From positions 86,651 through 150,650 of the IMG/VR virus record IMGVR_UViG_3300036783_000080: a DNA stretch of 64,000 nucleotides; one strand, given 5' to 3'. Below are positions 4,614 to 49,747 of this stretch, in pieces. Positions within the stretch are counted from its first letter, which is position 1. Each line of letters starts with the position of its first letter. Origin of the DNA: a virus (taxonomy: Duplodnaviria; Caudoviricetes). The translations under genes and the position numbers were made by a program. The notes beneath the pieces are model-generated. The model saw only the letters and a list, made by a program, of their open reading frames with translations. It was not told the DNA's origin and made no database searches.

Positions 4614-4950
4614 CTTCAGGAAGTCCGAACAGTTTAGATACATGAACGCCATTTTCTCTTAGATAATCAATACCATCCGTCACTCGGTACTCTTCATGAT
4701 ACATAACTGTTAACACTCCTTCTTCAACTAATCGCTTTGCGCAGTCTAAACAAGGAGAATGAGAGACAATCACCATTTTTGGGTTATCGTAACTCATCTG
4801 TTCCAAAAGATTGATTTCTGCGTGAGTACATCCGCAAGCTCCTGGGACATTTGAACATTCTTTATGATTATAGTTTCGAGCTTTACCAATCGTTCCGTCA
4901 ACAGTAATACCGATGGCCACAACTTTCATACGTTTACATTTATTGTCCAT
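4606..4950 (-). CDS. dCMP deaminase-like protein
   Basis: HAEINL and SPCLDC zinc-binding deaminase motifs; YHEEYR. Confidence 0.85.
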   Translation of the reverse strand: MDNKCKRMKVVAIGITVDGTIGKARNYNHKECSNVPGACGCTHAEINLLEQMSYDNPKMVIVSHSPCLDCAKRLVEEGVLTVMYHEEYRVTDGIDYLRENGVHVSKLFGLPEDE

Positions 4951-5938
4951 CCCATTCACCTTCTTCATCATCTTCACGTGGAGTGTTCATTTGATTCTCG
5001 ATATCTTCATCATTTTCGTTATCAAAAATCTTCTCTACAACCTGAACCAACCAGTTTGAATCGAAATTGAATGTTGGGTCTTCTAAGCGTTTAGAATGTA
5101 CCGTATCAATAAGAATGCTCATATATGTTAAGTCTACACCAGTGAGTTGGTCTTCTAACACTAATGGGTCATTCAGATTCAATTCACTCACTTGGAATAT
5201 CATCTTCAACACTTGTCCTGCGTTGATTGTGTACCCTCTAGCGATGAACTTTCTCATACGAAGAATAGACGCAATCGGATATTTTGAACCTGAGTAACGA
5301 AGTTCTTTTGTCATTATAGATGTGAGAGTTTCAGCAGGAAGCGTTAACTTACCAGTATTGAATAAACTTCCACCTGTCCAATAAGCTACGCCAGTTGGCT
5401 CCCAATACGCTTGACAGTGAATGTAATCAAAGTTCTTGTGAACTTCTTCTGGGCTGCCGTGGAATCGCATAATTAATTGAACACCATCTGATAACGTGAT
5501 AGCGTTTGAAGATAGGAAAATAGGTCTGAAGTTCTTTTCGTCCTTTGGTTTCTTTGACTCATCTTTGGGTTGTAATCCTAGTCCTCTGCGGTTGATTTCG
5601 TCTTGTTCCATTCCTTCCGTATCTTCAGCGATACCTTTTGAACGAATCATTACTTTGACACGTTTCTCTTCAAGAGATTTTAAATCCACACTAGCATGAG
5701 TGTCGTGATGTTTATTCCATCTATCTACATAATAACCAGCAACCGCTCTACAAGTTTCAAAATCTTTAAAATAGATATCATAGTCATTCGGCTCTTCATT
5801 TCCTAATAGGGAAACAATAGCACCCCCAGAAATAAAACAATTCTTTTCAACCAGTTCACTCACCTTTTTATCATCTATAGACTTTACCCAGTTTTTGTGA
5901 ATACGTGCTAATCTTGATTTAATCTGTTTCGTTAACAT
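4940..5938 (-). CDS. pol-beta superfamily nucleotidyltransferase
   Basis: FISGGAI...PNDYDIYF motif like the CCA-adding/poly(A) polymerase head; FDYIHC. Confidence 0.7.
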   Translation of the reverse strand: MLTKQIKSRLARIHKNWVKSIDDKKVSELVEKNCFISGGAIVSLLGNEEPNDYDIYFKDFETCRAVAGYYVDRWNKHHDTHASVDLKSLEEKRVKVMIRSKGIAEDTEGMEQDEINRRGLGLQPKDESKKPKDEKNFRPIFLSSNAITLSDGVQLIMRFHGSPEEVHKNFDYIHCQAYWEPTGVAYWTGGSLFNTGKLTLPAETLTSIMTKELRYSGSKYPIASILRMRKFIARGYTINAGQVLKMIFQVSELNLNDPLVLEDQLTGVDLTYMSILIDTVHSKRLEDPTFNFDSNWLVQVVEKIFDNENDEDIENQMNTPREDDEEGEWDGQ

Positions 5939-6051: not shown

Positions 6052-6532
6052 ACTTCATAACTCTATCTTTTTGAGTAGGTACTGCAGAGACTACATCATT
6101 GAATGTAATGTCGTATTTCTTTCCCTGAACCTTTACTTCAAACGTTGTATTCTTGCTCAAAGAAAGGTCTTCAGAGATAATTCCAGCCATCCGAATACCG
6201 TTATTGTCGAACTGTACTGTCCATCCTTGTGGAATCTTACGAGCTTTTGTGATATCAATGATTTTGTTTTTTGGTCCAAATTCATCGTCTGGGTCATAGA
6301 ACTTTCGGCACGCCGCTTCATTAGTTTCCGCAGGAACGATTGAACGAAGAGATTGTCCAGTCACCATTTTGTAACGAACTGCAAAGAATTTAAGTTCAAA
6401 TGTAGGAAGGTCATTGTCTTGTTTTACTGTCGCCCAAGCTTCCTTAAGATGTGACGCAGGAGTTCCGCCTTTCTCCTGAGACAATTTCTTAGCCAATTCA
6501 CATGCCATACTTCTTAAGTTATCCTTTTTCAT
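6050..6532 (-). CDS. hypothetical protein (160 aa)
   Basis: ORF track; RBS AAGGAG. Confidence 0.75.
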   Translation of the reverse strand: MKKDNLRSMACELAKKLSQEKGGTPASHLKEAWATVKQDNDLPTFELKFFAVRYKMVTGQSLRSIVPAETNEAACRKFYDPDDEFGPKNKIIDITKARKIPQGWTVQFDNNGIRMAGIISEDLSLSKNTTFEVKVQGKKYDITFNDVVSAVPTQKDRVMK

Positions 6533-6635
6533 GTTATAACTCTCCTTTTAATTTGAATTTTAAGCTGTGAGACTGATTGACTATTTGAATTTAAATTCTC
6601 TGACAGCTAATTAATTGTTAACCGTTGCTAATGGT

Positions 6636-6974
6636 TTACAGTTTGTTTAGGTGTTTGATAAACTCTCGTATACAATCATATTTATTAATCTCACGTGTTT
6701 TTTCTATCGTTGTTACTATTTTATCCGCAATTGTCATTTTAATTCCTATTAAATCACTTTCTGGATAATCTTCTATTTTTATTTCATAAGGTTTTCCATT
6801 TAGCAAGATAGCGGCGTCACCTGGCGTCACATTGAACGCCATATCCGCAGTTTCAACTATGTTCTCTTGTTTCAAGCTTTCGTTACCATATTTTCTCATT
6901 TCATTATCACTCAAAATTAAAGTTGTAACATCTGACAACACCATATTTTCATGTTTAACATTTTTAAATCTCAT
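6636..6974 (-). CDS. hypothetical protein (112 aa)
   Basis: ORF track; RBS GGAGG. Confidence 0.75.
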   Translation of the reverse strand: MRFKNVKHENMVLSDVTTLILSDNEMRKYGNESLKQENIVETADMAFNVTPGDAAILLNGKPYEIKIEDYPESDLIGIKMTIADKIVTTIEKTREINKYDCIREFIKHLNKL

Positions 6975-6985
6975 TTTAATTCCTC

Positions 6986-7204
6986 CTATTTTTCGAATGT
7001 AAATTTTCTTGTCGATAATCTATTTTGACCAAAACATTTAATGTCTGCAACATTATATGCTTTCTTATATCCTCTTTTCTTTGCGTAACTACAAGCCAAG
7101 GTTGCTGTCGCTCCTCTATCTAGTTCGCTTGGGTCATCTGCCCCAACTACTACAACAAACATTTTTCCAGAGCGGTAAGAGTCAACCACCTTCATAACAT
7201 TCAC
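6986..7204 (-). CDS. hypothetical early protein (72 aa)
   Basis: ORF track; downstream of sigmaA promoter. Confidence 0.65.
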   Translation of the reverse strand: MNVMKVVDSYRSGKMFVVVVGADDPSELDRGATATLACSYAKKRGYKKAYNVADIKCFGQNRLSTRKFTFEK

Positions 7205-7245
7205 TTTCCCTTCTTGGTAATTGGTTTTTATTACCTTACAACTTC

Positions 7246-7274
7246 ATTATAATATATCTTGTCCCTTATTTCAA
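7246..7274 (-). promoter_or_regulatory. sigmaA-type early promoter
   Basis: TTGAAA-N17-TATAAT. Confidence 0.75.
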
Positions 7275-7300
7275 GCATTTATACCAAAAATTGTAACAAT

Positions 7301-9832
7301 TTATTTCTTTTTCTTATTGCCCACGCTCATTAACAAAAGCTCATCCTCAAGTATAGCTTCTTGTACTTCTTCTATCGGCTTTCCATACTTCGTTAAACAT
7401 TCTTTGATATATTCAGAATTGTCATATACTTGTAACCCACGTTTGTATGGTAAATCGTTCATCTTAACTCGGATAACTGGTTGATTCTTCTTATCTGCCA
7501 ATACTCCAACCATAGCTTCATGCATTTTAAGCTCCATACAGTCTTCTAAACTGAAATCTGGTTCAATACGATGCAAGAACTTCTTCCATAACTTATCACT
7601 ATTTTGTTTTAATACAACAAAGTTACAACCAGAAGATATCATTATGTCTCCTAAATCTTTAGGAATCTGTGCGAAGTCGTGGAATAAACTAAACACACAT
7701 AATCCGAACTTTCGTGACTCTGGATAGATTTCTTCAAGCGTTGAAGCTAATGATTTAGTAAGGAATTGATGTGGCTCGTTCATTACAAGATAGGATTGAC
7801 AATACTTTCCTTGTCGCTTCATAGCTTGTTTTGCCAACCAAGTCTTAACTGTTAACCAATGAACCAAAGTTCTTATCCCTGTTGAAGTGAATATATCTTT
7901 CGGAACTTTACAAATAATAACCTTCCCATCATACAACCATTCGTCAAAGTTGATAGAGCCATCACCTTGTTGTCCAAAGATAACTTTTAATGCTGGGTCA
8001 CCGACAAGTTTGTGTAAGCGATTCAGGATTGGGTCGGCAATCTGTTTCTTTCGTCCATCTCCAATCTCTTGATAGAGCTTCCAGAAAGCCGCTGTTGAGA
8101 TGTCTTTTCTCTTTTCGCAGTCAGCTATTGTCTTTTCAAGGAACTCAGGAGATGTAAACATTAAGCCCATCTGAATAACTGTTCCATTTGGTAATGCTTT
8201 CGCCGCTTCTCTCAAATAACGTTCCGTTTGAACGCCAGCTTCATCCTCTGTTTCAAAGAACTTCACCAATTCAGAAGCGAACTTGTTTTGTGTAAATCGG
8301 TCTTCCGTTCTCATTGCCTCAACCCAATCTAAATACGGCACATACTCTTCATTTCCGAAATCTAACACTACAAGCTTCTCTGGAGGTAATGTTTTGATAA
8401 TCGCATCCGACATCCCTCTGTCAACTTCGTCAACTACGTCCAATATAACCGCCCCTTTACCCATCAGAGCGTTTTCAACTATAAAGTTAGCGGCGAACGT
8501 ATCTTTTCCACTTCCCATAATACCAGAGCTTATAATTGGAAGCATAGCTTCATCAGGATTATCAGCAGGAAAGAACGTTTCAAACTCTTCTCCTTTATAG
8601 GAAGTTTTACCAAGGAAGACTCCAGTTGGTTTCAAGAACACATCAGGAATCCCAACTTCAGACCTTTGTAGCACATCCATTTTATCTCCATAAATCTTCT
8701 GAAGCTTTGAAGTTGGAAGTTGCATAACCTTTCCCAGCTCTCTATCACACATTATCATATAATCTGTATCGGCTACAGATAGCGGCGTCACCTTATGTTC
8801 ACTTATTTCTTTATGAGCCATTTTAAAGAAAGAGCTTGAAGGATTCTCATATATAGTCGTTCTTATGAGAGCGTTGTTGGAATCCTTCAAATCATCAAAA
8901 GCATTCGTCAAAGATTTCATATTCATCGTTCTTCTCACTTCATCTGTACTATGACTTGCTACACGGATATTTGCTTTGAATACTGGAGCTGTCTGTTTAT
9001 ATCCAGTTTGTCTTGAAATCCCTCCCACTTCTCTTGTCTCTGCTGAAGCGTGGTTGACAACTATTTGTTGAGTTTTCTGTTTCTTGAACGCTATTGAATG
9101 AAGCTCTCTAAACATAAGAGACAATTTATGGAAAGCTATGTCACTCAATCCAAATAACGCTCCTATGACTCCATCTTTGGTGATTCTTAATCTTATTGGA
9201 GCTTTACCCTTCAATGTTTTCTTATGCCACTCTTCGCACTTGTAAGACCAGTAATTCATATCAGAGGGTTTAACCCTCATAGAGAACTTAAGTACGTCAC
9301 CTTCTCGGATATCTTCAGAGCAAGCCAGTACATCTTGTACTGGTTGAGCTTGCTCCCCATAATCCGTTTTAATACTGAAGAAGTTATGTCTTTGTAAATT
9401 CATATCGGCTATGGTTGTATCATCATAAGGAATCGCTGTTTCAGAAACATCAACCTCCTCAATTGGAGCTTTCGGAAATGATTGTGTAAGTTTTAATAGT
9501 ACAAAATCAGCATTCTCTTCGTAGCAGACCACATAGAAGCTTATTTCATTTTCTTTCATCATTATCTCATACCATATATAGTCTGTGGACGGTTTGAATA
9601 CCATTTTGTACCCTTTCTTTTCCTTCTTCATAAACGTATCAGCCACTAAATTCTTCACGCCGCTCGTTACTTGTTGCATAACGTTCTTACTTTCTAGTTC
9701 AGCCACATCCTTGAAGAACTTATAGTTGGAGTGGTTTGTTATGGACTTATCTGGAACAATTTTAAAGCAAACCAGATTCTGTTTCTGTACTTCAAAGAGT
9801 TGAGGAATACTTCTCCAATTAGTTGAACTCAT
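7301..9832 (-). CDS. VirB4/VirD4/HerA-FtsK superfamily P-loop ATPase
   Basis: GIMGSGKDT Walker A, VILD, LVMNEPHQF Walker-B-like, ESRKFGL; long N-terminal domain as in conjugative coupling-like ATPases. Confidence 0.75.
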   Translation of the reverse strand: MSSTNWRSIPQLFEVQKQNLVCFKIVPDKSITNHSNYKFFKDVAELESKNVMQQVTSGVKNLVADTFMKKEKKGYKMVFKPSTDYIWYEIMMKENEISFYVVCYEENADFVLLKLTQSFPKAPIEEVDVSETAIPYDDTTIADMNLQRHNFFSIKTDYGEQAQPVQDVLACSEDIREGDVLKFSMRVKPSDMNYWSYKCEEWHKKTLKGKAPIRLRITKDGVIGALFGLSDIAFHKLSLMFRELHSIAFKKQKTQQIVVNHASAETREVGGISRQTGYKQTAPVFKANIRVASHSTDEVRRTMNMKSLTNAFDDLKDSNNALIRTTIYENPSSSFFKMAHKEISEHKVTPLSVADTDYMIMCDRELGKVMQLPTSKLQKIYGDKMDVLQRSEVGIPDVFLKPTGVFLGKTSYKGEEFETFFPADNPDEAMLPIISSGIMGSGKDTFAANFIVENALMGKGAVILDVVDEVDRGMSDAIIKTLPPEKLVVLDFGNEEYVPYLDWVEAMRTEDRFTQNKFASELVKFFETEDEAGVQTERYLREAAKALPNGTVIQMGLMFTSPEFLEKTIADCEKRKDISTAAFWKLYQEIGDGRKKQIADPILNRLHKLVGDPALKVIFGQQGDGSINFDEWLYDGKVIICKVPKDIFTSTGIRTLVHWLTVKTWLAKQAMKRQGKYCQSYLVMNEPHQFLTKSLASTLEEIYPESRKFGLCVFSLFHDFAQIPKDLGDIMISSGCNFVVLKQNSDKLWKKFLHRIEPDFSLEDCMELKMHEAMVGVLADKKNQPVIRVKMNDLPYKRGLQVYDNSEYIKECLTKYGKPIEEVQEAILEDELLLMSVGNKKKK

Positions 9833-10370
9833 GACTAATCACCCGTATGATAGCACCCAACGCCCAAGCCATCATTCCCCACACATAAGGTTTTCCGTTG
9901 CCCCAAGCCATCGTTAGTATGAAGCAGCAAAGACCTACTGTTGTCAACGCTAAAGGACTGACTTCAAGTGTCTTAATAAACAACCAGTGAAATCCGTCTA
10001 ACATCGCTTGACCTACTGGAGCAAATATTGAGTTGATAACTCCTCCATCGTTTTCAGCTATGTCTTTTATGTTATGAACGTGCTCATTTAGAAACCCTTG
10101 CGGGATTGTTACGTGTGGTGCGGTTGGGTCTACAAGTATTTCTGTTCCATCTGGAGCTGAAGTTGCTTCTGGTATCTTAAATTCATGTAATGGTGGCGGC
10201 TCTGGGTTTGGTTGTAGTATCTCTGAAGGAGATGGAAGTGTTGGAGATACTGGTTGACTCCCGTGAAGGTTGAAGTTGAATGGGTTACTGTTTTGTACAG
10301 GCGGCTGTTCTCTTAATGGTGCCAAAGCAATTTTAATCGTATGGAATCCGCTTTTCATTTCAATCACCAT
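9819..10370 (-). CDS. proline-rich membrane protein
   Basis: Pro-rich N-terminus; two or three hydrophobic C-terminal helices; overlaps ATPase start. Confidence 0.7.
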   Translation of the reverse strand: MVIEMKSGFHTIKIALAPLREQPPVQNSNPFNFNLHGSQPVSPTLPSPSEILQPNPEPPPLHEFKIPEATSAPDGTEILVDPTAPHVTIPQGFLNEHVHNIKDIAENDGGVINSIFAPVGQAMLDGFHWLFIKTLEVSPLALTTVGLCCFILTMAWGNGKPYVWGMMAWALGAIIRVISHEFN

Positions 10371-10447
10371 CCTATTATTAGTCTAACGATACTAATGATA
10401 ATTCCACCAACCATAAGAAATTCAGCAATAAGTTTTACCTTTTTCAT
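10364..10447 (-). CDS. 27-aa single-TM peptide MKKVKLIAEFLMVGGIIISIVRLIIGW
   Basis: Hand-translated; RBS AAGGAG; fills the gap in the operon. Confidence 0.6.
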   Translation of the reverse strand: MKKVKLIAEFLMVGGIIISIVRLIIGW

Positions 10448-10458
10448 TTTATCTCTCC

Positions 10459-10878
10459 TTATAGTTGATTTAAGAAACCAATCCAAGCATCTACTTTTCT
10501 TGTTGTAATGTAACCAAGAGATAACCAGAACAATCTTTCCATCCCAATCTTCCCGTTACCAGTCATAATTGCGATACCAGCAATCATACCAAAGATTTTC
10601 GCTATTGGGTCAAGAAGTTCCAACAATTTATTTATAAGATGTTCCCATCCAACTTCTGAAGATGCGGCAACAGTCGTTACTGCCGTTGTAGCGGCGTATA
10701 CTGCTAATGGAGGTACGGGAGCGTGGAAGATAGCGATAGTTGAAACAACGCCAACCTTGAATGCTAACTTGTAAGCGTTTTTCTTTCTTTCAGCTTTCTT
10801 GATTTCCTTCTTATTCAAAACCACTTTCTCCCCACGACAGAATGATTTGAAGTCTAACACTTCTTTATGCTTTTTCAT
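10459..10878 (-). CDS. TrbC/VirB2-pilin-like membrane protein
   Basis: Basic N-terminus, signal-like segment ending AVYA, helical hairpin PIAKIFGMIAGIAIMTG...LFWLSLGYI. Confidence 0.5.
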   Translation of the reverse strand: MKKHKEVLDFKSFCRGEKVVLNKKEIKKAERKKNAYKLAFKVGVVSTIAIFHAPVPPLAVYAATTAVTTVAASSEVGWEHLINKLLELLDPIAKIFGMIAGIAIMTGNGKIGMERLFWLSLGYITTRKVDAWIGFLNQL

Positions 10879-10976
10879 TTTTTCTTCCCTCCAAGTTTGC
10901 TCTTTAGTATTAGGTAAGTCCCAAAGCTGACTGAAGCAAATCCCGTCAGATACACCGCAACTCCTACAATAGTCAT
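10875..10976 (-). CDS. 33-aa single-TM peptide MTIVGVAVYLTGFASVSFGTYLILKSKLGGKKK
   Basis: Hand-translated; RBS GGAGG; ATGA overlap with next gene. Confidence 0.6.
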   Translation of the reverse strand: MTIVGVAVYLTGFASVSFGTYLILKSKLGGKKK

Positions 10977-11063
10977 TTTATCCCTCCAGTAATCAGTTGC
11001 TTAATATAAGATACGTTGTGGGTGCGTCCTATATTCCGCTTTATTTTAAAATTTATTTTTAGA

Positions 11064-11098
11064 CAAAAAGAAAGGATTCCCGTTGATTACAGGAATCC
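11064..11098 (-). terminator. intrinsic terminator
   Basis: GGATTCC/GGAATCC stem plus TTTCTTTTT on the minus strand. Confidence 0.7.
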
Positions 11099-11286
11099 AA
11101 GTATATCCACCAAGTGAGGGCAAAGTATCTCTAAAGACACCCGCTTAAAAGCAAGTGTATTCGCACGCTCGTGAATTCAACCCCATCTATTGTTAAAGTT
11201 TTTTGCAGAAAGTCAAAATTCAGGTCGTATAACTTTTATGCGTCAGGGCATAATAGAAGTAACCCACAGGAAAGGATGAGTGTTCT

Positions 11287-11361
11287 ATGGTAGCAGGAGT
11301 GGAGTACATTATCATAGGCTATGTCCTCATGGCCATTGGAGAGTTCATAATTAAACTTTAA
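11287..11361 (+). CDS. 24-aa hydrophobic peptide MVAGVEYIIIGYVLMAIGEFIIKL
   Basis: Hand-translated; purine-rich AGGAAAGGATGAG upstream; ends before a hairpin. Confidence 0.4.
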   Translation: MVAGVEYIIIGYVLMAIGEFIIKL

Positions 11362-11368
11362 ATAAAAC

Positions 11369-11396
11369 AGGAGCAACTTCATCAGTTGCTCCTTAC
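11369..11396. terminator. probable bidirectional terminator
   Basis: AGGAGCAACT/AGTTGCTCCT inverted repeat with T-rich flanks on both strands. Confidence 0.7.
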
Positions 11397-11660
11397 TTTT
11401 TCTTTCGCCGCTATTTGATTTAAGAGAAGTTTTCCCCAACGATTTAAAACGATTCTTTTTGCCACCGCATCGTTACTTACTATCTCAACCGCTTTAAGGA
11501 GAGAATACTTTTGTTTCAAGCCGCTCGCAAACTCTTCCTTCATGTTTACGTAATCTTTTGTTATTGTATCTAATCCTTGATTTATTAAGGAAGTTCTGTC
11601 TTTTGTATCCATAATGTATGTAGCACCAGTATTCTTATTCATAATTGTTAACGTAAACAT
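11382..11660 (-). CDS. hypothetical early protein
   Basis: ORF track; start MFTLTIM after AAGGAG. Confidence 0.7.
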   Translation of the reverse strand: MFTLTIMNKNTGATYIMDTKDRTSLINQGLDTITKDYVNMKEEFASGLKQKYSLLKAVEIVSNDAVAKRIVLNRWGKLLLNQIAAKEKVRSN

Positions 11661-11714
11661 ATTAACCGCTCCTTTTTCCACTTGGTAATTGTTCTTTATT
11701 AACTTACAAGAACA

Positions 11715-11743
11715 ATCATATTATAGCTTGTCCCAATAGTCAA
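11715..11743 (-). promoter_or_regulatory. sigmaA-type early promoter
   Basis: TTGACT-N17-TATGAT. Confidence 0.7.
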
Positions 11744-11785
11744 GTGCTTATCCGTAAAATTTTGAAAATAAAAAGAGAGCAATTT

Positions 11786-12436
11786 TCATCGCTCTCTTCT
11801 CGGTACTTCGAACTTGAACAATACATCGTCTTCTGTCTCAAGTTCTTTTATATTCTCCAGTAAGATATCCATTTGTTTCAGATTCTCTTCAATCTCCAAG
11901 TTCTCCTCTTGAAGCTCCTGTTGTTGTCGTAGCTTCTTAACAAGAAAATGAAGCCTAGTGTGGATTGTACTAACGTTGACACCCTCTTCTTCCGCTAGTG
12001 AGTGAACGCTTCGTTTATCCCGTAGGATGGACAAGAACAGTTGTTTCTGTTTCTTTCCCATACTGAAATCATCGTCCCAGCTTAGTATGTTTATTAAATC
12101 TTCCAATTCATCCCGTTCTTCAAAACAATCTTTACCAAAAGTTATTTCATCGTTGGTAAAGCCTTCAACAACCGTTTCATTCTTTCGCAGTTTAATCGTC
12201 TTTGTAATAAAATGATATGTCCTTAGTTCTAACATTCGCTTGATATAGAAAGGAAAATCAACACCCACTCGTTTATTATATTCAACCACCAGTTTGGCGA
12301 ATATACTGTTGATTTCTGACATTAAGTCCTCTTTGTCCTCAAGCTTGCTAAACATTGGATGAAAACGTTTATATGTGGCTAGAATTAAGGGACGGTACTT
12401 TTTCATCAGTTCCACGATATCCTTCATAGTTACCAC
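11786..12436 (-). CDS. RNA polymerase sigma factor (putative late sigma, SPO1 gp34-like)
   Basis: Region 2 EDLMSE...DFPFYIKRML; region 4 HTH SLAEEEGVNVSTIHTR. Confidence 0.8.
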   Translation of the reverse strand: MVTMKDIVELMKKYRPLILATYKRFHPMFSKLEDKEDLMSEINSIFAKLVVEYNKRVGVDFPFYIKRMLELRTYHFITKTIKLRKNETVVEGFTNDEITFGKDCFEERDELEDLINILSWDDDFSMGKKQKQLFLSILRDKRSVHSLAEEEGVNVSTIHTRLHFLVKKLRQQQELQEENLEIEENLKQMDILLENIKELETEDDVLFKFEVPRRER

Positions 12437-12750
12437 TCCAATAATTCGATTGTGTCCATTCCACAGAGTACTGAAGCATAGTTTACTGAAAAGTAAAGAT
12501 ATCCTCTTTCACCCTCCAAATTGAACGTTTCCTTCTTTAATAATACGTGATGTTCATACGTCTTTTCGATTAAAACAAGTTGCGGCTGTTTGATATTGGG
12601 ATTTTGTTGAGTTTTCCAAATAGCTATCTGTCCCACTATTTGCTCAAATTGATTTCTGTACATACCATAAGTGACGTCAGCCTGTGTCTTTCCTTTTATG
12701 GAATAGACATCTTTGTATGACTGTTCTAGGATTTCTTTTAAATATCCCAT
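12430..12750 (-). CDS. hypothetical protein (possible gp33-like late co-factor by size and position)
   Basis: 106-aa ORF overlapping the sigma gene; function from synteny only. Confidence 0.45.
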   Translation of the reverse strand: MGYLKEILEQSYKDVYSIKGKTQADVTYGMYRNQFEQIVGQIAIWKTQQNPNIKQPQLVLIEKTYEHHVLLKKETFNLEGERGYLYFSVNYASVLCGMDTIELLEW

Positions 12751-15482: not shown

Positions 15483-15510
15483 TTTATAACCTCCTCTTTC
15501 ATCTTACACA

Positions 15511-15543
15511 TAATAAAACGAGTCCCACATAAAATTTTCTCCT
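15511..15543 (-). promoter_or_regulatory. phage middle-type promoter
   Basis: AGGAGA-N18-GTTTTATTA. Confidence 0.8.
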
Positions 15544-15568
15544 ATTAACATAGTATTTTCCCATAACC

Positions 15569-19019: not shown

Positions 19020-19051
19020 CCGTCACCAACTCCTCTCTTACATCTTACATA

Positions 19052-19084
19052 TAATAAAACGGGTGATGTGAAAAGTTTTCTCTT
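19052..19084 (-). promoter_or_regulatory. phage middle-type promoter
   Basis: AAGAGA-N18-GTTTTATTA. Confidence 0.75.
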
Positions 19085-19098
19085 GGGGAACATAGATG

Positions 19099-22888: not shown

Positions 22889-22917
22889 TCAATCAAATCT
22901 CCTTTCTTTACTCTACA

Positions 22918-22950
22918 TAATAAAACGGAAGACTGCATAAAGATACTCCT
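22918..22950 (-). promoter_or_regulatory. phage middle-type promoter
   Basis: AGGAGT-N18-GTTTTATTA. Confidence 0.8.
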
Positions 22951-22959
22951 GGAAAACAA

Positions 22960-22995
22960 GAAAAAGGCACAGAGCTTAGTGTGCCCTGTGCCTTT
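22960..22995 (-). terminator. intrinsic terminator
   Basis: AAAGGCACAG/CTGTGCCTTT stem plus T-run. Confidence 0.75.
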
Positions 22996-23009
22996 TATGA
23001 ACCAATAAA

Positions 23010-25455: not shown

Positions 25456-25490
25456 AGTTTGAAAAACTCCTTTCAGTATCTCTTACACCT

Positions 25491-25522
25491 TAATAAAACG
25501 GATAAGTGAAAAAGTTTCTCCT
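25491..25522 (-). promoter_or_regulatory. phage middle-type promoter
   Basis: AGGAGA-N17-GTTTTATTA. Confidence 0.75.
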
Positions 25523-25605
25523 GAATACATAAATTATGTGGAAAACCTTAACTTCATAAAAGATTCCCACAGTAAACCCTATGTTATAAACTAGGAGGTG
25601 ATACC

Positions 25606-31505: not shown

Positions 31506-31973
31506 TTATTGATATGTTTTCTTTAAAGCCATAATAAGTCGCATTTTGTGAATGGCTGGACTTTCATAATGCTTACAAGTTCCGCCACGAGCTTCCAATA
31601 GGTCTTTAAGCTCTTCAACACTCATACCTTTAGTGTTTGGCATTCCTTCAGGGATTTCCTGCTGTTTCTTCTCTTTTTTCGGCTTCTCTTGTTTCTCTTC
31701 AACAGGAGCGGCTTCCACTTCTTTCTCTTCTGGTTCTTGCGGCTGAGTAGGGAATGGAACTTTTGGTTTGTTCGCTTCCGCATTCTTCAATGCCTGTTCC
31801 GTTTCAGGGTTGAGTTTCTTCATATCGTTGAACACGCTGTTCGATTTTGTCTTGGCTGCGCATTCCTGTTGTAAGTCGCACATCTTACATTCTTTCACCG
31901 TTGGTTCAAAAGCCTTTCCAAAACAAGGTGAACTTTCCATCTGGTTTAATAAATCTGGGTCTGTAAATGCCAT
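31506..31973 (-). CDS. Cys-rich regulatory protein (possibly SPO1 gp27-like)
   Basis: PCFG...ECKMC...EC plus C-terminal helix-extended-helix; directly downstream of sigma. Confidence 0.55.
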   Translation of the reverse strand: MAFTDPDLLNQMESSPCFGKAFEPTVKECKMCDLQQECAAKTKSNSVFNDMKKLNPETEQALKNAEANKPKVPFPTQPQEPEEKEVEAAPVEEKQEKPKKEKKQQEIPEGMPNTKGMSVEELKDLLEARGGTCKHYESPAIHKMRLIMALKKTYQ

Positions 31974-32716
31974 TACGCAATAACCTCTCTTTCCTTGTTT
32001 ATAACAAGTTCTGTAATAAACTTTATCTCTTTAATTGCATTGTCGAATTGTTTAGATGTAATACCAAGAGAGTCACGAATATGTTTGTATTTAACTTCAG
32101 CTTTACGTGGCAAGTTTACCTTTTTGCCTTGGTCACGTAAACATATTTTTCTTGCTCTATCTGCCCAAGAGTGCCACAATGTTTTAGGTGATGGATTAAT
32201 AATCTCACATAAAACAGCGATAGCTATGTCTGAATCAAGATTGTCTCGAATTTCTGCTGTCATTCGGTCATAACCTGATTCCACTTCATATGTAGGTGCT
32301 TCCCCAGTTGTTAAAAGAGCGGTTTCAAGGTCGTTTTCTCTTCTTGGCTTCGCCGCATCTTTAATCGCACGATACAGCGAAGTAGTAAATAACATTTTGA
32401 ATTCTTCAATAGGAAGATGGTTATACTTGTCGTAAATGTCATACAGTTTAATAATGCCAATTTGATACAAGTCTTCAACACTCAGAGATTGGTCAATGTA
32501 ATTGGCTCTATCCAGATAGACTTCTTTCGCTGCGTGTTTTACCAAATTAACGAACTTCGCATAAACAAAATCCCACTCCAACTTTGGTCTGTCCCCATGT
32601 TTGTTTTTCATAATGATGGGGATTCTCAGAATTTTCCCACTTTCATCCACTGTTGGTTTCTTTTTATCTCTGTTAATGATGATTGGGATTCTCATAATAG
32701 TTCCGCTCTTGTGCAT
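31973..32716 (-). CDS. phage sigma factor (putative middle sigma, SPO1 gp28-like)
   Basis: SVEDLYQIGIIKLY region 2; C-terminal HIRDSLGITSKQF HTH; in the early operon. Confidence 0.75.
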   Translation of the reverse strand: MHKSGTIMRIPIIINRDKKKPTVDESGKILRIPIIMKNKHGDRPKLEWDFVYAKFVNLVKHAAKEVYLDRANYIDQSLSVEDLYQIGIIKLYDIYDKYNHLPIEEFKMLFTTSLYRAIKDAAKPRRENDLETALLTTGEAPTYEVESGYDRMTAEIRDNLDSDIAIAVLCEIINPSPKTLWHSWADRARKICLRDQGKKVNLPRKAEVKYKHIRDSLGITSKQFDNAIKEIKFITELVINKEREVIA

Positions 32717-41823: not shown

Positions 41824-43830
41824 TTATCCCTCCTTCGTCACGGTTGTTCGTCCTCCTTCTTTACGCACAATCAACTCTTTGTCAAAGAATGCTTTCAGGA
41901 TTTCGTTGTGAGTTATTACATAAATTGTTTCAACTCTCTTCTCAATCTCTTTCAGAAGGGTAATAACATTCTCACAACCGATAGCGTCAAGTCCATCAAA
42001 TATTTCATCATATAATAGAATGTTGAATTTAGAATTTGAACGGGACATAACAAGGTCTTGAAGAGCTAAAGAGATTGCCAAGTCAATTCGTCCACGCTCC
42101 CCTGTGGAATTTGCTTCATAAGTATTTCCTCCAACAGAGTTACGTATTTCAATGTCAAATTTCTCACGTTTCTCGCCACTAGCTAATGTTGTTTGGGTTG
42201 AAAGAATAACTTCAATCGTGTTACCTGCTAACTTTCCTAAATAATAGTTGGTACGTTCATTCAAGAAAGGTGTTACAGCATCTAACAGATGAGACTTAAT
42301 ACCTCCATTACCGTAAGCAACAACAGCAAACTTAAGTTTATCAACACGCTCTCTTAATTTCGAGATTTCATTTTGACTTGAATCCATCCCTGATATTAGT
42401 TCTGCTTTTTGAGCTTCTTTCTGCTCAATTAATTGTTGATACTTCTGTGCTCCTTGTTCCTCTTTACGGGTAATGTCTTTCTTAATTCTCTTAATCTCTC
42501 TTTGTTCTCCCAAGTCTTCAATAGCTTTTTCTAAGCGGTCAACGTTTCTCTTGGCTTTCTCTTCCGCTTTTTCTTCTGTCTTAATAAACGACTTGAGTTG
42601 AAAAATTTCTCCCATAACAGTTTCTTTTTGTTCTTCTAATGGCTCTTTCTTCTTTAAAGCCTTCTGAAGAGTCTTCACTTCGCCTTGTAATTCTTCAGCT
42701 TCTTCGTTGATTTTGTCAAAGCGTTCATCCTCTTCTTTAATCTTCATAGCCACATGAAGCATTGACTCTTTTATGGATGATTTCTTAATCTCCTGTTTAC
42801 ATACAGGACAATTCGTTCCAACGCCGCTACGAATATCTTCAAGTTCTTCCTTCAACTTTTCAATACTCTTCGCAATCGACTTGCATTCACGTTCTTTCAT
42901 TTTGATGTCAGCTTTACGTTCACTGATTGCATCCTCAATATCATCGAACTTATGTAAACTCTTGTTGATTTTATCCTTAAGTTTCTCAAACGCTTCAAGC
43001 TTATCTACATTATCAGTAGAATCAGAAGCGAACTTGACATATTCTTCTTTAGCTTCTTCATAGTCAGTCGCTAACTCAGCAAGCTCTTTCTTGTATCGTT
43101 TCTGAGCTTCTTTCAGTTCCTTCTTCAGCTCTGCAATTTCTTCCTTCGTTCGCACCTCTTCTTCTTTCTCTGCGTTCTTTAAAGAATCAATAGTATCTTC
43201 AATCTCAGACAATAGATTCTTTGAGGATTGAACTTTATTTTCTAAGGAGACTAATTGCTTGTCAGCCTTATCTCGTTTGCTCTTGGCGATTTCTAGACAT
43301 TTAGACCAAACATCCATTTGCATCATCTTTTCTAGAATGCCTTTCTTCTCAGAATCTGTAGCAAGAGCAAACTTTTTAATCAGTCCTTGTCCAAAGAATA
43401 TGGAGTTTGTGAAGGTGATGAAATCCATTCCAATAATCTCTTCAATAAGTTTGTTACAATCTTTGCTGCTCTTTGGTGTTATGTTCTTTCCTTCTTGGAA
43501 TATTCTTGTGTTATTCTTATGTTCTTTGTGTTTACGGTATCTTGCTATGCGGTATTCTTTTCCATCAGAACCATCAAAGTCAAGTATGACAGAAGTGTTG
43601 TTTCCAACTTCTTCATTGATGATGTCATTCGCAGAAAGTCCTTTAACTGTCTTCTCAAACAGAGAATATACAACCGCTTCAAACGTTGTTGACTTCCCTG
43701 CCCCATTTGAGTCAAAGGCTGGTGAGTCAAGATTCTGTCCTTTAACCAATACCAGTCCTTGTCCACTAAGCTCAATTGTTGCTTCTCTAATAGATAAAAA
43801 GTTTTTTACAGTTACGCTCTTAAGTTTCAA
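41824..43830 (-). CDS. SbcC/Rad50-like ATPase
   Basis: NGAGKST, coiled coil with CPVC hook, STGE, LYDE, ITH. Confidence 0.9.
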   Translation of the reverse strand: MKLKSVTVKNFLSIREATIELSGQGLVLVKGQNLDSPAFDSNGAGKSTTFEAVVYSLFEKTVKGLSANDIINEEVGNNTSVILDFDGSDGKEYRIARYRKHKEHKNNTRIFQEGKNITPKSSKDCNKLIEEIIGMDFITFTNSIFFGQGLIKKFALATDSEKKGILEKMMQMDVWSKCLEIAKSKRDKADKQLVSLENKVQSSKNLLSEIEDTIDSLKNAEKEEEVRTKEEIAELKKELKEAQKRYKKELAELATDYEEAKEEYVKFASDSTDNVDKLEAFEKLKDKINKSLHKFDDIEDAISERKADIKMKERECKSIAKSIEKLKEELEDIRSGVGTNCPVCKQEIKKSSIKESMLHVAMKIKEEDERFDKINEEAEELQGEVKTLQKALKKKEPLEEQKETVMGEIFQLKSFIKTEEKAEEKAKRNVDRLEKAIEDLGEQREIKRIKKDITRKEEQGAQKYQQLIEQKEAQKAELISGMDSSQNEISKLRERVDKLKFAVVAYGNGGIKSHLLDAVTPFLNERTNYYLGKLAGNTIEVILSTQTTLASGEKREKFDIEIRNSVGGNTYEANSTGERGRIDLAISLALQDLVMSRSNSKFNILLYDEIFDGLDAIGCENVITLLKEIEKRVETIYVITHNEILKAFFDKELIVRKEGGRTTVTKEG

Positions 43831-49513: not shown

Positions 49514-49538
49514 GGCAACTCACTCCTTTCTACTCACT

Positions 49539-49572
49539 TAATATAAACGGTTTAACCTCAAAGTACACTCCT
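49539..49572 (-). promoter_or_regulatory. phage middle-type promoter
   Basis: AGGAGT-N18-GTTTATATTA. Confidence 0.7.
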
Positions 49573-49747
49573 GTTATCAATCAGGCGGCTTGGAACAAGC
49601 TGCTTATTTTACGAAGTAAAATATAAGATATATGTACTTTAGAAAAGATAACTATGTTATATGCTCTTAATCTTTAGAAAAGATATGTGTTCTTTATTTT
49701 AGCCCAAAAAATTATGACCATTAAATCCATAGCTCTGAATTCATTAT

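What the first reader, a model, noticed from the sequence alone, without database searches (positions are those of the whole stretch)
7301..11036. Self-contained VirB2/VirB4-like membrane translocation operon in a phage
Seen: five coupled genes (33-aa TM peptide, pilin-like 139 aa, 27-aa TM peptide, Pro-rich membrane protein, 843-aa ATPase), insulated by an upstream terminator. No relaxase is visible. The ATPase has atypical GKD and NE Walker motifs. The upstream region lacks both phage promoter classes seen elsewhere but has GAATATA-N14-CGTATCTT (11008-11036), loosely like a sporulation sigmaE promoter. Inference: a minimal DNA or protein translocator, possibly moving phage DNA into the forespore or between cells.
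Basis: partly seen in the sequence, partly recalled or inferred. Interest (0 to 1): 0.72.

Follow-up and report, generated by a model that had tools for sequence, protein, structure and literature searches.

The report
Phage-borne minimal VirB2/VirB4 secretion-like module
A large lytic Bacillus phage carries a five-gene operon that looks like a stripped-down bacterial conjugation (type IV secretion) machine; the same module occurs in more than 150 phages of spore-forming bacteria, including SPP1 and SPO1, and its job is still unknown.

Summary
Five translationally coupled minus-strand genes lie behind a terminator: a 33-aa TM peptide, a 139-aa protein, a 27-aa TM peptide, a 183-aa Pro-rich protein and an 843-aa ATPase.

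- **ATPase:** it is VirB4-type in both domains. The C-terminal domain matches VirB4 4AG5 (Z 27.9). The N-terminal domain matches the TrwK/VirB4 N-domain (Z 15.4; next best 8.6).
- **Walker motifs:** the GKD and NE motifs are real and form a covarying swap across the family (GKD+NE 33, GK[T/S]+DE 74).
- **139-aa protein:** it is a remote TrbC/VirB2-like protein and the homologue of SPP1 gp31.1.
- **183-aa protein:** it shares a C-terminal TM hairpin with relatives, and five of nine of those carry an M23 peptidoglycan peptidase in place of the Pro-rich region.
- **Prior literature:** the module is the counterpart of SPP1 gp31.1–gp32 and SPO1 gp27.4. Godinho 2018 already suggested that SPP1's version is a non-essential translocon.
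- **Promoter:** the promoter-like motif is found at no other gene head in this genome. It recurs, in register, at the head of homologous operons, and its spacing and -10 element resemble sigma-E promoters. The window's own copy is an imperfect match.
- **Hosts:** every phage hit infects a spore-former, apart from one record named for Microcystis.

The forespore role remains untested. This scan noted the same module earlier on other DNA (e1-5595561).

The parts
11369..11393 (-). Terminator-like hairpin ending the upstream transcription unit (after the 99-aa gene)
   Evidence: 10-bp stem, 5 GC pairs, followed by a T-run
11074..11098 (-). Second terminator-like hairpin, directly upstream of the operon promoter; acts as an insulator
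   Evidence: GGATTCC...GGAATCC stem followed by TTTCTTTTTG
11007..11037 (-). Promoter-like motif GGAATAT-N-CGTATCTTA (GGAAT-N17-mATAnnnTA). It is found at no other gene head in this genome and is conserved in register at the head of homologous operons
10875..10976 (-). 33-aa single-TM peptide with a basic C-terminus
   Evidence: Positional equivalents of 32-44 aa occur in SP-10, L005, L013, L016, L018 and L030
10459..10878 (-). 139-aa TrbC/VirB2-like membrane protein. It has a basic N-tail, a signal-peptide-like TM segment ending in VYA|AT, and then two hydrophobic helices joined by a GNGK loop. It is the homologue of SPP1 gp31.1
10364..10446 (-). 27-aa single-TM peptide
   Evidence: annotated as a membrane protein in phage Nachito
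9819..10370 (-). 183-aa protein with a Pro-rich N-terminal half and a conserved C-terminal module of about 90 aa that ends in a TM hairpin. In five relatives the N-half is an M23 peptidase
8678..9832 (-). ATPase N-terminal domain (residues 1 to about 385), with the VirB4 N-domain fold
   Evidence: TrwK 7o42_A residues 34-424, Z 15.4, rmsd 3.8 A over 250 residues; next best match Z 8.6
7424..8650 (-). ATPase C-terminal RecA-like motor domain (residues 395-803) of the VirB4/VirD4/HerA clade
   Evidence: 4ag5 Z 27.9; DndH-C 26.1; HerA 25.5; TrwB 24.1
8501..8524 (-). Walker A motif GIMGSGKD, with Asp in place of Ser/Thr after the Lys
7775..7789 (-). Walker B motif LVMNE, with Asn in place of Asp
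   Evidence: covaries with GKD across the family

Best explanation
The operon encodes a minimal membrane machine derived from a type IV secretion system. Its parts are a VirB4-type ATPase, a TrbC/VirB2-like small membrane protein, a TM-hairpin protein that sits where VirB3 sits in bacterial operons (and that in relatives carries an M23 cell-wall endopeptidase), and two TM micro-peptides. It is the counterpart of SPP1 gp31.1-gp31.2-gp32 and of SPO1 gp27.5-27.7/gp27.4. This is an accessory module, non-essential in the laboratory, and widespread in lytic and temperate phages of endospore-forming Firmicutes.

Inferred mechanism: the ATPase hexamer docks on the cytoplasmic face of the membrane through its VirB4 N-domain. 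It uses ATP to pull the VirB2-like subunits out of the bilayer and assemble a short conduit through the envelope; the Mg site appears rewired by the GKD/NE swap rather than lost. Where present, the fused M23 peptidase opens the wall. A macromolecule, either phage DNA or a protein, then passes through. This phage lacks the peptidase, a coupling protein and a relaxase.

My favoured timing, at roughly 30%, is sporulation. The dedicated promoter resembles sigma-E (mother-cell) promoters, so the machine may act at the mother-cell/forespore interface during entrapment of the phage genome. The fold assignments, homology, synteny and motif conservation are shown here. Assembly, substrate and timing are inferred.
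For: - **ATPase C-domain:** the best structural match is VirB4 of T. pseudethanolicus (4ag5), Z 27.9, rmsd 3.5 A, 337 of 374 residues aligned.
- **ATPase N-domain:** folded alone (pLDDT 88.7) and compared with 48,161 PDB representatives, it matches only the TrwK/VirB4 N-domain well (Z 15.4 against 8.6 for the next). Foldseek's top 11 hits are all TrwK.
- **Distant sequence relatives:** P0018-P0021 carry TrwB_AAD_bind, T4SS-DNA_transf, DUF87 and TraG-D_C domains.
- **139-aa family:** 20 of 25 members hit PF04956 TrbC/VirB2, best E 3.7e-5. One relative is named a VirB2 pilin by JGI. Atlas neighbours include TrbC and T4SS_pilin clusters. hhalign to SPP1 gp31.1 gives 90.9% probability, E 1.2e-6, over 123 columns.
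- **Fourth gene:** it carries Peptidase_M23 in 5 of 9 relatives, best E 2.1e-26, and the profile hits solved M23 structures at 3.7e-20.
- **Synteny:** the order micro-peptide, VirB2-like, TM hairpin, ATPase is kept in relatives at only 21-28% identity: SPP1-like phages, a Paenibacillus genome and a Desulfotomaculum genome. SPO1 has three small TM proteins in place of a VirB2-like gene.
- **Breadth:** 109, 146 and 66 phage records hold homologues in three searches, and 276 protein-cluster representatives score below E 1e-30.
- **Walker swap:** GKD+NE occurs 33 times and GK[TS]+DE 74 times, with few mixed cases. This argues for a working, selected active site.
- **Literature:** the SPP1 homologues are non-essential and were proposed to form a translocon (PMC6316719).
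Against: - No Pfam, NCBIfam or PDB sequence hit reaches threshold for the ATPase, so membership rests on predicted structure.
- The VirB2 link is sub-threshold: 13.6 bits against a cut-off of 27.9.
- The TM-hairpin protein has no detectable similarity to VirB3 or to SPP1 gp31.2.
- No VirD4 homologue was found in the genome. VirB6 and VirB8 were not searched for. Known Gram-positive systems need these parts.
- No experiment shows assembly, a substrate or any phenotype.
- The complex prediction that would have tested docking could not be run.
Confidence: 0.6

Rival explanations
1. Sporulation-specific conduit. [quoted passage not shown] The result is a 'virospore'.
For: - **Conserved motif:** GGAAT-N16/17-mATAnnnTA is found at no other gene head in this genome. 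It recurs at the operon head in L005/L018, L015, L016, L017, L019 and SP-10, and after a terminator upstream of SPP1 gene 31. In L005, L016, L017 and L018 it is the only perfect match in the whole locus.
- **Resemblance to sigma-E promoters:** its spacing and -10 element resemble the empirical sigma-E promoters I extracted upstream of spoIVA in 20 Bacilli genomes. Examples are GAATAAA-N13-CATATACA and TCATATT-N13-CATATATT.
- **Hosts:** all phages with homologues infect spore-formers in three independent searches; one 'Microcystis' record is the only oddity.
- **Bacterial genomes:** all 12 Bacilli genomes with strong matches also have spoIVA, against 272 of 401 in the sample. That gives roughly p = 0.01, uncorrected for phylogeny. 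The three named genomes that carry it are Paenibacillus, Thermincola and Desulfotomaculum.
- **Literature and context:** SPO1 forms virospores (PMC12991052). In SPO1 and L006 the module sits beside an actin-like DNA-segregation gene.
Against: - The window's -10 element is CGTA, not the conserved CATA.
- A relaxed sigma-E score as good as this one occurs about 390 times in the genome.
- GGAAT is not the canonical sigma-E -35 element.
- The phage has three sigma factors of its own, including a SigB/F/G-family one, and any of them could read this promoter.
- In SPP1 the genes are assigned to the early sigma-A unit PE5.
- The host restriction may only reflect limits on gene flow.
- No expression data exist.
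Confidence: 0.3
2. Vegetative-phase envelope function. The module is made during ordinary lytic infection from a promoter read by a phage sigma factor. It serves superinfection exclusion, export of a phage protein, or spread of phage DNA to neighbouring cells in a chain.
For: - The operon lies directly downstream of the gp33/gp34-like late-transcription genes.
- The genome encodes three phage sigma factors.
- In SPP1 the homologues sit in an early transcription unit.
- The M23 peptidase in relatives is catalytically intact (HxxxD and HxH motifs present), as expected for real wall cutting.
Against: - The motif does not occur upstream of any other gene in this genome, unlike the promoter classes the phage uses repeatedly.
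- No homologue was found in the many sequenced phages of non-sporulating Firmicutes, where exclusion or spread would be just as useful.
Confidence: 0.2
3. A HerA/FtsK-type defence or counter-defence ATPase, or a decaying remnant of a conjugative element with no role for the phage.
For: HerA and DndH C-domains score nearly as high as VirB4 for the motor domain (Z 25.5 and 26.1). The SPO1 module is flanked by plasmid-type genes: an ALP actin and a Replic_Relax protein.
Against: - The N-domain has the VirB4 fold, not a HAS barrel.
- There is no PADLOC hit and no nuclease or Sir2 partner.
- All five genes are intact and translationally coupled.
- Synteny and the catalytic residues are conserved down to 21-28% identity in more than 150 phages, which argues for selection.
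Confidence: 0.05

Closest known systems
SPP1 gp31.1-gp31.2-gp32 putative translocon (Godinho et al. 2018, PMC6316719)
   Same: The ATPase is homologous over 97% of its length (tblastn E 2e-84). The 139-aa protein is homologous to gp31.1 (hhalign 90.9%). The gene order is the same, with a TM-hairpin protein before the ATPase. The same GGAAT...CATA motif follows a terminator at the head of the cluster.
   Different: Identity is only about 26%. SPP1 adds gp31, which carries an NFSGYV-type motif that recurs upstream of the module in several distant relatives (my reading: ribbon-helix-helix-like). The window has two extra micro-peptides and a Pro-rich extension. The paper reported only C-terminal similarity to TrwB, VirB4 and FtsK; it did not report the VirB4 N-domain, the VirB2 link or the M23 fusions.
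VirB4 ATPases of type IV secretion systems (TrwK of R388; VirB4 of T. pseudethanolicus)
   Same: The two-domain architecture is the same, and both domains match structurally. A small pilin-like gene and a small TM-hairpin gene lie directly upstream, as in virB2-virB3-virB4 operons.
   Different: No sequence-level family hit. The Walker motifs are swapped to GKD/NE. No VirD4 or Replic_Relax relaxase is present in the genome, and VirB6 and VirB8 were not searched for. The module is carried by a lytic myovirus.
SPO1 gp27.9-gp27.3 cluster
   Same: gp27.4 is a full-length homologue (E 4e-32), preceded by three small TM proteins.
   Different: SPO1 keeps the canonical GKT/DE motifs. It adds an actin-like ALP protein (E 2.2e-27) and a Replic_Relax protein (E 2.9e-12); this genome has neither. 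No VirB2-like protein was recognised in SPO1.
SpoIIIA-SpoIIQ 'feeding tube' of sporulating cells
   Same: Analogy only. Both are a sigma-E-type operon encoding a secretion-like ATPase plus small membrane proteins, working with an M23/LytM-domain protein. The M23 profile of the relatives also hits SpoIIQ (E 4.1e-9).
   Different: No homology was shown between the ATPases or the membrane parts. The SpoIIQ hit is weaker than the hits to ordinary M23 enzymes. The resemblance is recalled knowledge, not a test.

Membership tests
VirB4 (T4SS ATPase) | C-terminal RecA-like motor domain of the VirB4/VirD4/HerA clade | tested here: met
   4ag5 Z 27.9, rmsd 3.5 A, 337 residues aligned; and 8/12 agree
VirB4 (T4SS ATPase) | VirB4-specific N-terminal domain (absent from VirD4, HerA and FtsK) | tested here: met
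   TrwK residues 34-424, Z 15.4 over 250 residues, next best 8.6, in an exhaustive search of 48,161 chains; one search agrees
VirB4 (T4SS ATPase) | Match to the curated sequence families (CagE_TrbE_VirB, AAA_10) | tested here: not met
   no Pfam family at E <= 1; searches gave nothing
VirB4 (T4SS ATPase) | Canonical Walker A GK[ST] and Walker B DE | tested here: not met
   GKD and NE instead, covarying across the family (33 GKD+NE against 74 canonical)
VirB4 (T4SS ATPase) | Works with VirB3, VirB6, VirB8 and a coupling protein | tested here: inconclusive
   No VirD4-family hit in the genome. The hairpin protein has no VirB3 signal. VirB6 and VirB8 were not searched.
TrbC/VirB2 pilin (PF04956) | Score above the Pfam gathering threshold | tested here: not met
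   13.6 bits against 27.9. However, 20 of 25 relatives hit the family, best E 3.7e-5.
TrbC/VirB2 pilin (PF04956) | Long leader with an AxA-type site, then two hydrophobic helices joined by a short basic loop; gene lies next to virB4 | tested here: met
   read directly from the sequence and alignment. Processing itself is not testable here.
SPP1 gp31.1-gp32 module | Homologous ATPase and homologous gp31.1, in the same order | tested here: met
SPP1 gp31.1-gp32 module | Homologue of gp31.2 | tested here: inconclusive
   BLASTP E 1.0. Same position and a TM hairpin.
Sigma-E-dependent promoters | -35 kmATAtt, spacer 13-15, -10 CATAcahT | tested here: inconclusive
   The window has GAATATA-N14-CGTATCTT, with the key A of CATA replaced by G. 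Relatives and SPP1 fit better. The loose score is common in this genome.
Sigma-E-dependent promoters | Transcription in the mother cell that depends on sigE | not testable with these tools
   Needs RNA mapping in sporulating infected cells
HerA-type defence ATPases | HAS-barrel N-domain and a nuclease/Sir2-type partner | tested here: not met
   The N-domain is VirB4-like; no PADLOC hit; the neighbours are small membrane proteins

The most novel reading that the evidence does not exclude
Lytic phages of spore-formers build their own T4SS-like conduit in the sporulating mother cell, from a sigma-E-type promoter. They use it to pass the phage genome, or a factor that protects it, into the forespore. 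This would give a molecular mechanism for the long-known entrapment of virulent phages in spores ('virospores').
Probability: 0.25. Interest if true: 0.9.

Novelty: new variant of a known kind. Interest (0 to 1): 0.62.

Why it matters
Type IV secretion parts are known from conjugative elements and pathogens, not as a conserved accessory module of virulent phages. Here a VirB4 with a VirB2-like partner, but without VirD4 or a relaxase, is kept in more than 150 phages. These include the model phages SPP1 and SPO1, where knock-outs are easy to make.

It could show what a minimal VirB2/VirB4 core can do on its own. The covarying GKD/NE swap is a natural experiment in P-loop Mg coordination. If the sporulation link holds, the module would explain how lytic phage genomes get into spores, a question open since the 1960s.

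The basic translocon idea was already published for SPP1, and this scan noted the module before on other DNA. The value here lies in the sharper assignment and in a directly testable hypothesis.

Tried and rejected
- **Sequence searches with no significant hit:** Pfam, NCBIfam and PADLOC for the ATPase, the 139-aa and the 183-aa protein (only sub-threshold hits for the 139-aa protein); PDB by single sequence and by profile for the ATPase; PDB by profile for the 139-aa family.
- **Paralogy:** hhalign of the 183-aa family against the 139-aa family found nothing, despite the shared GNGK loop. The 139-aa family against SPO1 gp27.8 also found nothing.
- **RNA families:** Rfam over 6900-12600 gave only a chance-level hit.
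- **SPO1 promoter consensus:** the middle and late consensus sequences do not occur at the operon.
- **Other sigma factors:** sigma-G, sigma-K and sigma-H readings of the motif were considered by eye. I set them aside because the CATxxTA register, the AC -35 element and the AGGA -35 element do not fit across the relatives.
- **Loose sigma-E scoring:** it proved non-discriminating, with about 390 sites of equal score in the genome.
- **Searches that failed or were uninformative:** The class-level genome search returned no taxon names, so I used spoIVA as a proxy for sporulation.
- **Complex prediction:** predicting the VirB4 N-domain together with the hairpin protein was attempted five times and the machine was unreachable. 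No result exists.
- **Literature:** searches found no paper linking this module to sporulation.


Full report
**Context.** The window is the right-hand 64 kb of a 150,650-bp phage genome. It is about 91% identical in DNA to Bacillus phage Nachito, a member of Herelleviridae, Spounavirinae. The finding lies on the minus strand, downstream of homologues of SPO1 gene 33 (window 12430-12750) and the gp34-like sigma factor (window 11786-12436).

**Observation.** All five ORFs exist as described:
- 33 aa at 10976-10875
- 139 aa at 10878-10459
- 27 aa at 10446-10364
- 183 aa at 10370-9819
- 843 aa at 9832-7301

Each has a ribosome-binding site, and the genes overlap or are separated by at most 12 nt. 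Terminator-like hairpins lie upstream at 11393-11369 and 11098-11074. A sigma-A-like promoter for the next unit follows the ATPase at 7274-7246.

**The ATPase.** Sequence libraries gave nothing except PHROG 5156, a family of unknown function. Distant relatives found by sequence (P0018-P0021) carry TrwB, TraG, DUF87 and FtsK domains.

The full-length AlphaFold model (pLDDT 78.7) has TrwK/VirB4 of plasmid R388 as its top Foldseek hits. With VIA-align, residues 395-803 match best to VirB4 of Thermoanaerobacter pseudethanolicus (4ag5, Z 27.9). DndH-C (26.1), HerA (25.5) and TrwB (24.1) follow closely. The motor domain alone therefore does not separate VirB4 from its sister families.

I then folded residues 1-400 alone with a 68-sequence alignment (pLDDT 88.7, pTM 0.84). 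In an exhaustive comparison with 48,161 PDB representatives, the TrwK/VirB4 N-domain (residues 34-424) is the single outstanding match: Z 15.4, rmsd 3.8 A, 250 residues. The next match scores 8.6. Foldseek's first eleven hits are all TrwK. The protein is therefore VirB4-type in both domains. It is not a VirD4-like coupling protein or a HerA-type protein.

**Walker motifs.** GIMGSGKD and LVMNE are invariant in the 15 closest relatives. Across about 130 family members the residue after the Walker A Lys and the residue before the Walker B Glu covary. GKD pairs with NE 33 times and GK[T/S] pairs with DE 74 times, with very few mixed cases. SPO1 gp27.4 has the canonical form. I read this as a compensated relocation of the Mg-binding carboxylate, which implies a working active site. 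That reading is an inference.

**The partners.**

*The 139-aa protein.* It has 31 close relatives. The alignment shows four parts in order:
- a basic N-tail;
- a signal-peptide-like TM segment ending in an AxA-type site;
- a variable Ala/Thr-rich linker;
- a nearly invariant C-terminal half, with two hydrophobic helices joined by a GNGK loop.

Twenty of 25 members hit Pfam TrbC/VirB2 below threshold, best E 3.7e-5. One relative is labelled a VirB2 pilin by JGI. Language-model neighbours include TrbC and T4SS_pilin clusters (a lead only). The profile aligns end to end with SPP1 gp31.1 (hhalign 90.9%, E 1.2e-6).

*The 183-aa protein.* It shares with eight relatives a conserved C-terminal module of about 90 residues ending in a TM hairpin. 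Its N-terminal half varies. It is Pro-rich here, nearly absent in SP-10, L016 and L019, and an M23 peptidase in L005, L014, L015, L017 and L018. The M23 assignment rests on Pfam E 2.1e-26 and a profile hit to solved M23 enzymes at 3.7e-20, and the HxxxD and HxH motifs are present. More distant relatives (L006, L007) also have the M23 fusion.

A cell-wall hydrolase is a standard part of Gram-positive T4SSs (established knowledge). This genome has no M23 domain anywhere. No VirB3 similarity could be shown for the hairpin. Its VirB3-like role rests on its position and topology only.

**Relatives and prior knowledge.** tblastn finds the ATPase in 109 phage records. These include SP-10 (60% identity), SPP1 gene 32 (E 2e-84), SPO1 gp27.4 (E 4e-32), CP-51 and 0305phi8-36. 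The SPO1 protein finds 146 records, including phage G. An exhaustive profile search gives 276 cluster representatives below 1e-30 and 2,460 below 1e-10.

The gene order micro-peptide, VirB2-like, TM hairpin (with or without M23), ATPase is conserved down to 21-28% identity. This holds in SPP1-like phages and in Paenibacillus and Desulfotomaculum genomes. SPO1 has three small TM proteins in place of a recognisable VirB2-like gene.

Godinho et al. 2018 (PMC6316719) made three relevant points:
- the gp32 C-terminus resembles TrwB, VirB4 and FtsK by HHpred;
- 31.2 and 32 are non-essential;
- gp32 might form a trans-membrane translocon with gp31.1 and gp31.2.

The core idea is therefore published. 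What is new here is:
- the VirB4 N-domain;
- the VirB2 link;
- the M23 fusions;
- the Walker swap;
- the promoter and host pattern.

In SPO1 the module is flanked by an actin-like ALP protein (E 2.2e-27) and a Replic_Relax protein (E 2.9e-12). L006 also has a ParM-like gene upstream. Several distant relatives, including SPP1 (gp31), encode upstream a small basic protein with a shared NFSGYV-type motif, which I read as ribbon-helix-helix-like. This genome has no ALP, Replic_Relax or VirD4 hit.

**The promoter.** The genome reuses two promoter classes: TTGACT-N17-TATAAT, and AGGAG(A/T)-N17-CGTTTTATTAT, which resembles the SPO1 middle class. Neither fits upstream of the operon in the correct register.

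The sequence GGAATAT...CGTATCTTA (11037-11007) aligns without gaps with the operon heads of these relatives:
- L015: GGAATAG...CATACAATA
- L016: GGAATTA...AATAGAGTA
- L019
- SP-10
- L005, L018 and L017, each with a spacer one nucleotide shorter
- SPP1, upstream of gene 31 and just after a terminator: GGAATAA...CATATCATT

L016, L017 and L019 were not used to define the pattern. In L005, L016, L017 and L018 the site is the only perfect match in the whole locus on both strands. Within this genome the motif is not reused at any other gene head.

As an empirical control I extracted the regions upstream of spoIVA from 20 Bacilli genomes; spoIVA is a known sigma-E target (established knowledge). They show TCATATT, GCATAAT or GAATAAA, then N13-15, then CATATAyw. 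The phage motif has the same architecture.

The caveats are real:
- The window's -10 element has G where CATA has its conserved A.
- A relaxed sigma-E score of this quality occurs about 390 times in this AT-rich genome.
- The phage encodes three sigma factors of its own, one of them in the SigB/F/G family (TIGR02980, E 2e-22), which lies outside the window.
- SPP1 authors place genes 31-32 in the sigma-A unit PE5.

My conclusion is that the operon has a dedicated, conserved promoter. Its sigma-E assignment is plausible but unproven.

**Host pattern.** In three tblastn searches, using the window, SPO1 and Clostridium phage proteins as queries, every hit is a phage of Bacillus, Geobacillus, Lysinibacillus, Alicyclobacillus, Brevibacillus, Clostridium or Terrisporobacter. 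The one exception is an oddly named Microcystis record. No phage of Staphylococcus, Listeria, Streptococcus, Enterococcus or Lactococcus appears.

In a sample of 401 Bacilli genomes, all 12 with strong full-length matches also encode SpoIVA, against 272 of 401 overall. That gives about p = 0.01 without phylogenetic correction. This is suggestive, but it could reflect barriers to gene flow.

SPO1 is documented to form virospores, and the authors point to its ParM gene 27.9, which sits next to the module (PMC12991052). No paper I found links the module to sporulation.

**Verdict.** The operon is a real, conserved, T4SS-derived minimal module: a VirB2-like protein, a hairpin protein, VirB4 and micro-peptides. 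It is a member of the family first noted in SPP1.
- Confidence in that identity is about 0.85.
- I commit to an envelope-conduit mechanism at 0.6.
- Sporulation-phase use is the favoured but unproven timing, at about 0.3.
- A vegetative envelope role stands at about 0.2.
- A defence or remnant reading stands at about 0.05.

I tested the promoter part of that note independently and only partly confirm it. Another note (e1-5757551) called the ATPase VirD4-like, which the N-domain fold contradicts.

Noticed in passing
window 4940-5938 (-): This 332-aa nucleotidyltransferase lies downstream of the module. The syntenic genes in relatives L014 and L015 hit PF26128 (Gad2, an anti-Gabija counter-defence family).
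   Followed up: no
window 12430-12750 and 11786-12436 (-): A homologue of SPO1 gene 33 (PF25742 in relatives) and a gp34-like sigma factor, the late-transcription pair, sit immediately upstream of the operon.
   Followed up: partly
genome G000 41967-42731 (-), outside the window: The phage encodes a 254-aa SigB/SigF/SigG-family sigma factor (TIGR02980, E 2e-22). A third sigma-like protein lies at G000 118623-119366 (window 31973-32716). Such sporulation-like phage sigma factors are reported to alter host dormancy.
   Followed up: partly
window 11099-11368: About 270 nt between the two terminators have no convincing ORF. In relatives L014 and L015 the equivalent space holds a divergently oriented small TM-peptide gene. 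L014, L015 and L019 also carry there a further copy of the motif (GGAATCTTTT...ATATGCTA type; in L015 and L019 a second, distal copy).
   Followed up: partly
window 15483-15568, 19020-19098, 22889-23009, 25456-25605, 49514-49673: A recurrent promoter class resembling SPO1 middle promoters, AGGAG(A/T)-N17-CGTTTTATTAT, lies upstream of replication-region genes.
   Followed up: partly
window 6532-6636 compared with L001 6455-7144: Phage Nachito has a GIY-YIG homing-endonuclease gene inserted between the 160-aa and 112-aa genes. The window lacks it.
   Followed up: no
L016, L017 and L018, downstream of the ATPase: Relatives carry two or three TerD-domain genes a few genes downstream of the module.
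   Followed up: no
L027 3181-5596 (Clostridium phage phiCp-D): The VirB4-like gene is annotated as two ORFs (179 aa and 631 aa). The first is misnamed a lipid A export permease, and the ATPase is named TraD.
   Followed up: no
L003 1989-3426 and 6675-7499 (SPO1): The SPO1 module is transcribed opposite to its neighbours. It is flanked by an Alp7A-like actin (gp27.9), an acidic protein that may be an adaptor (gp27.8), and a Replic_Relax protein (gp27.3).
   Followed up: partly
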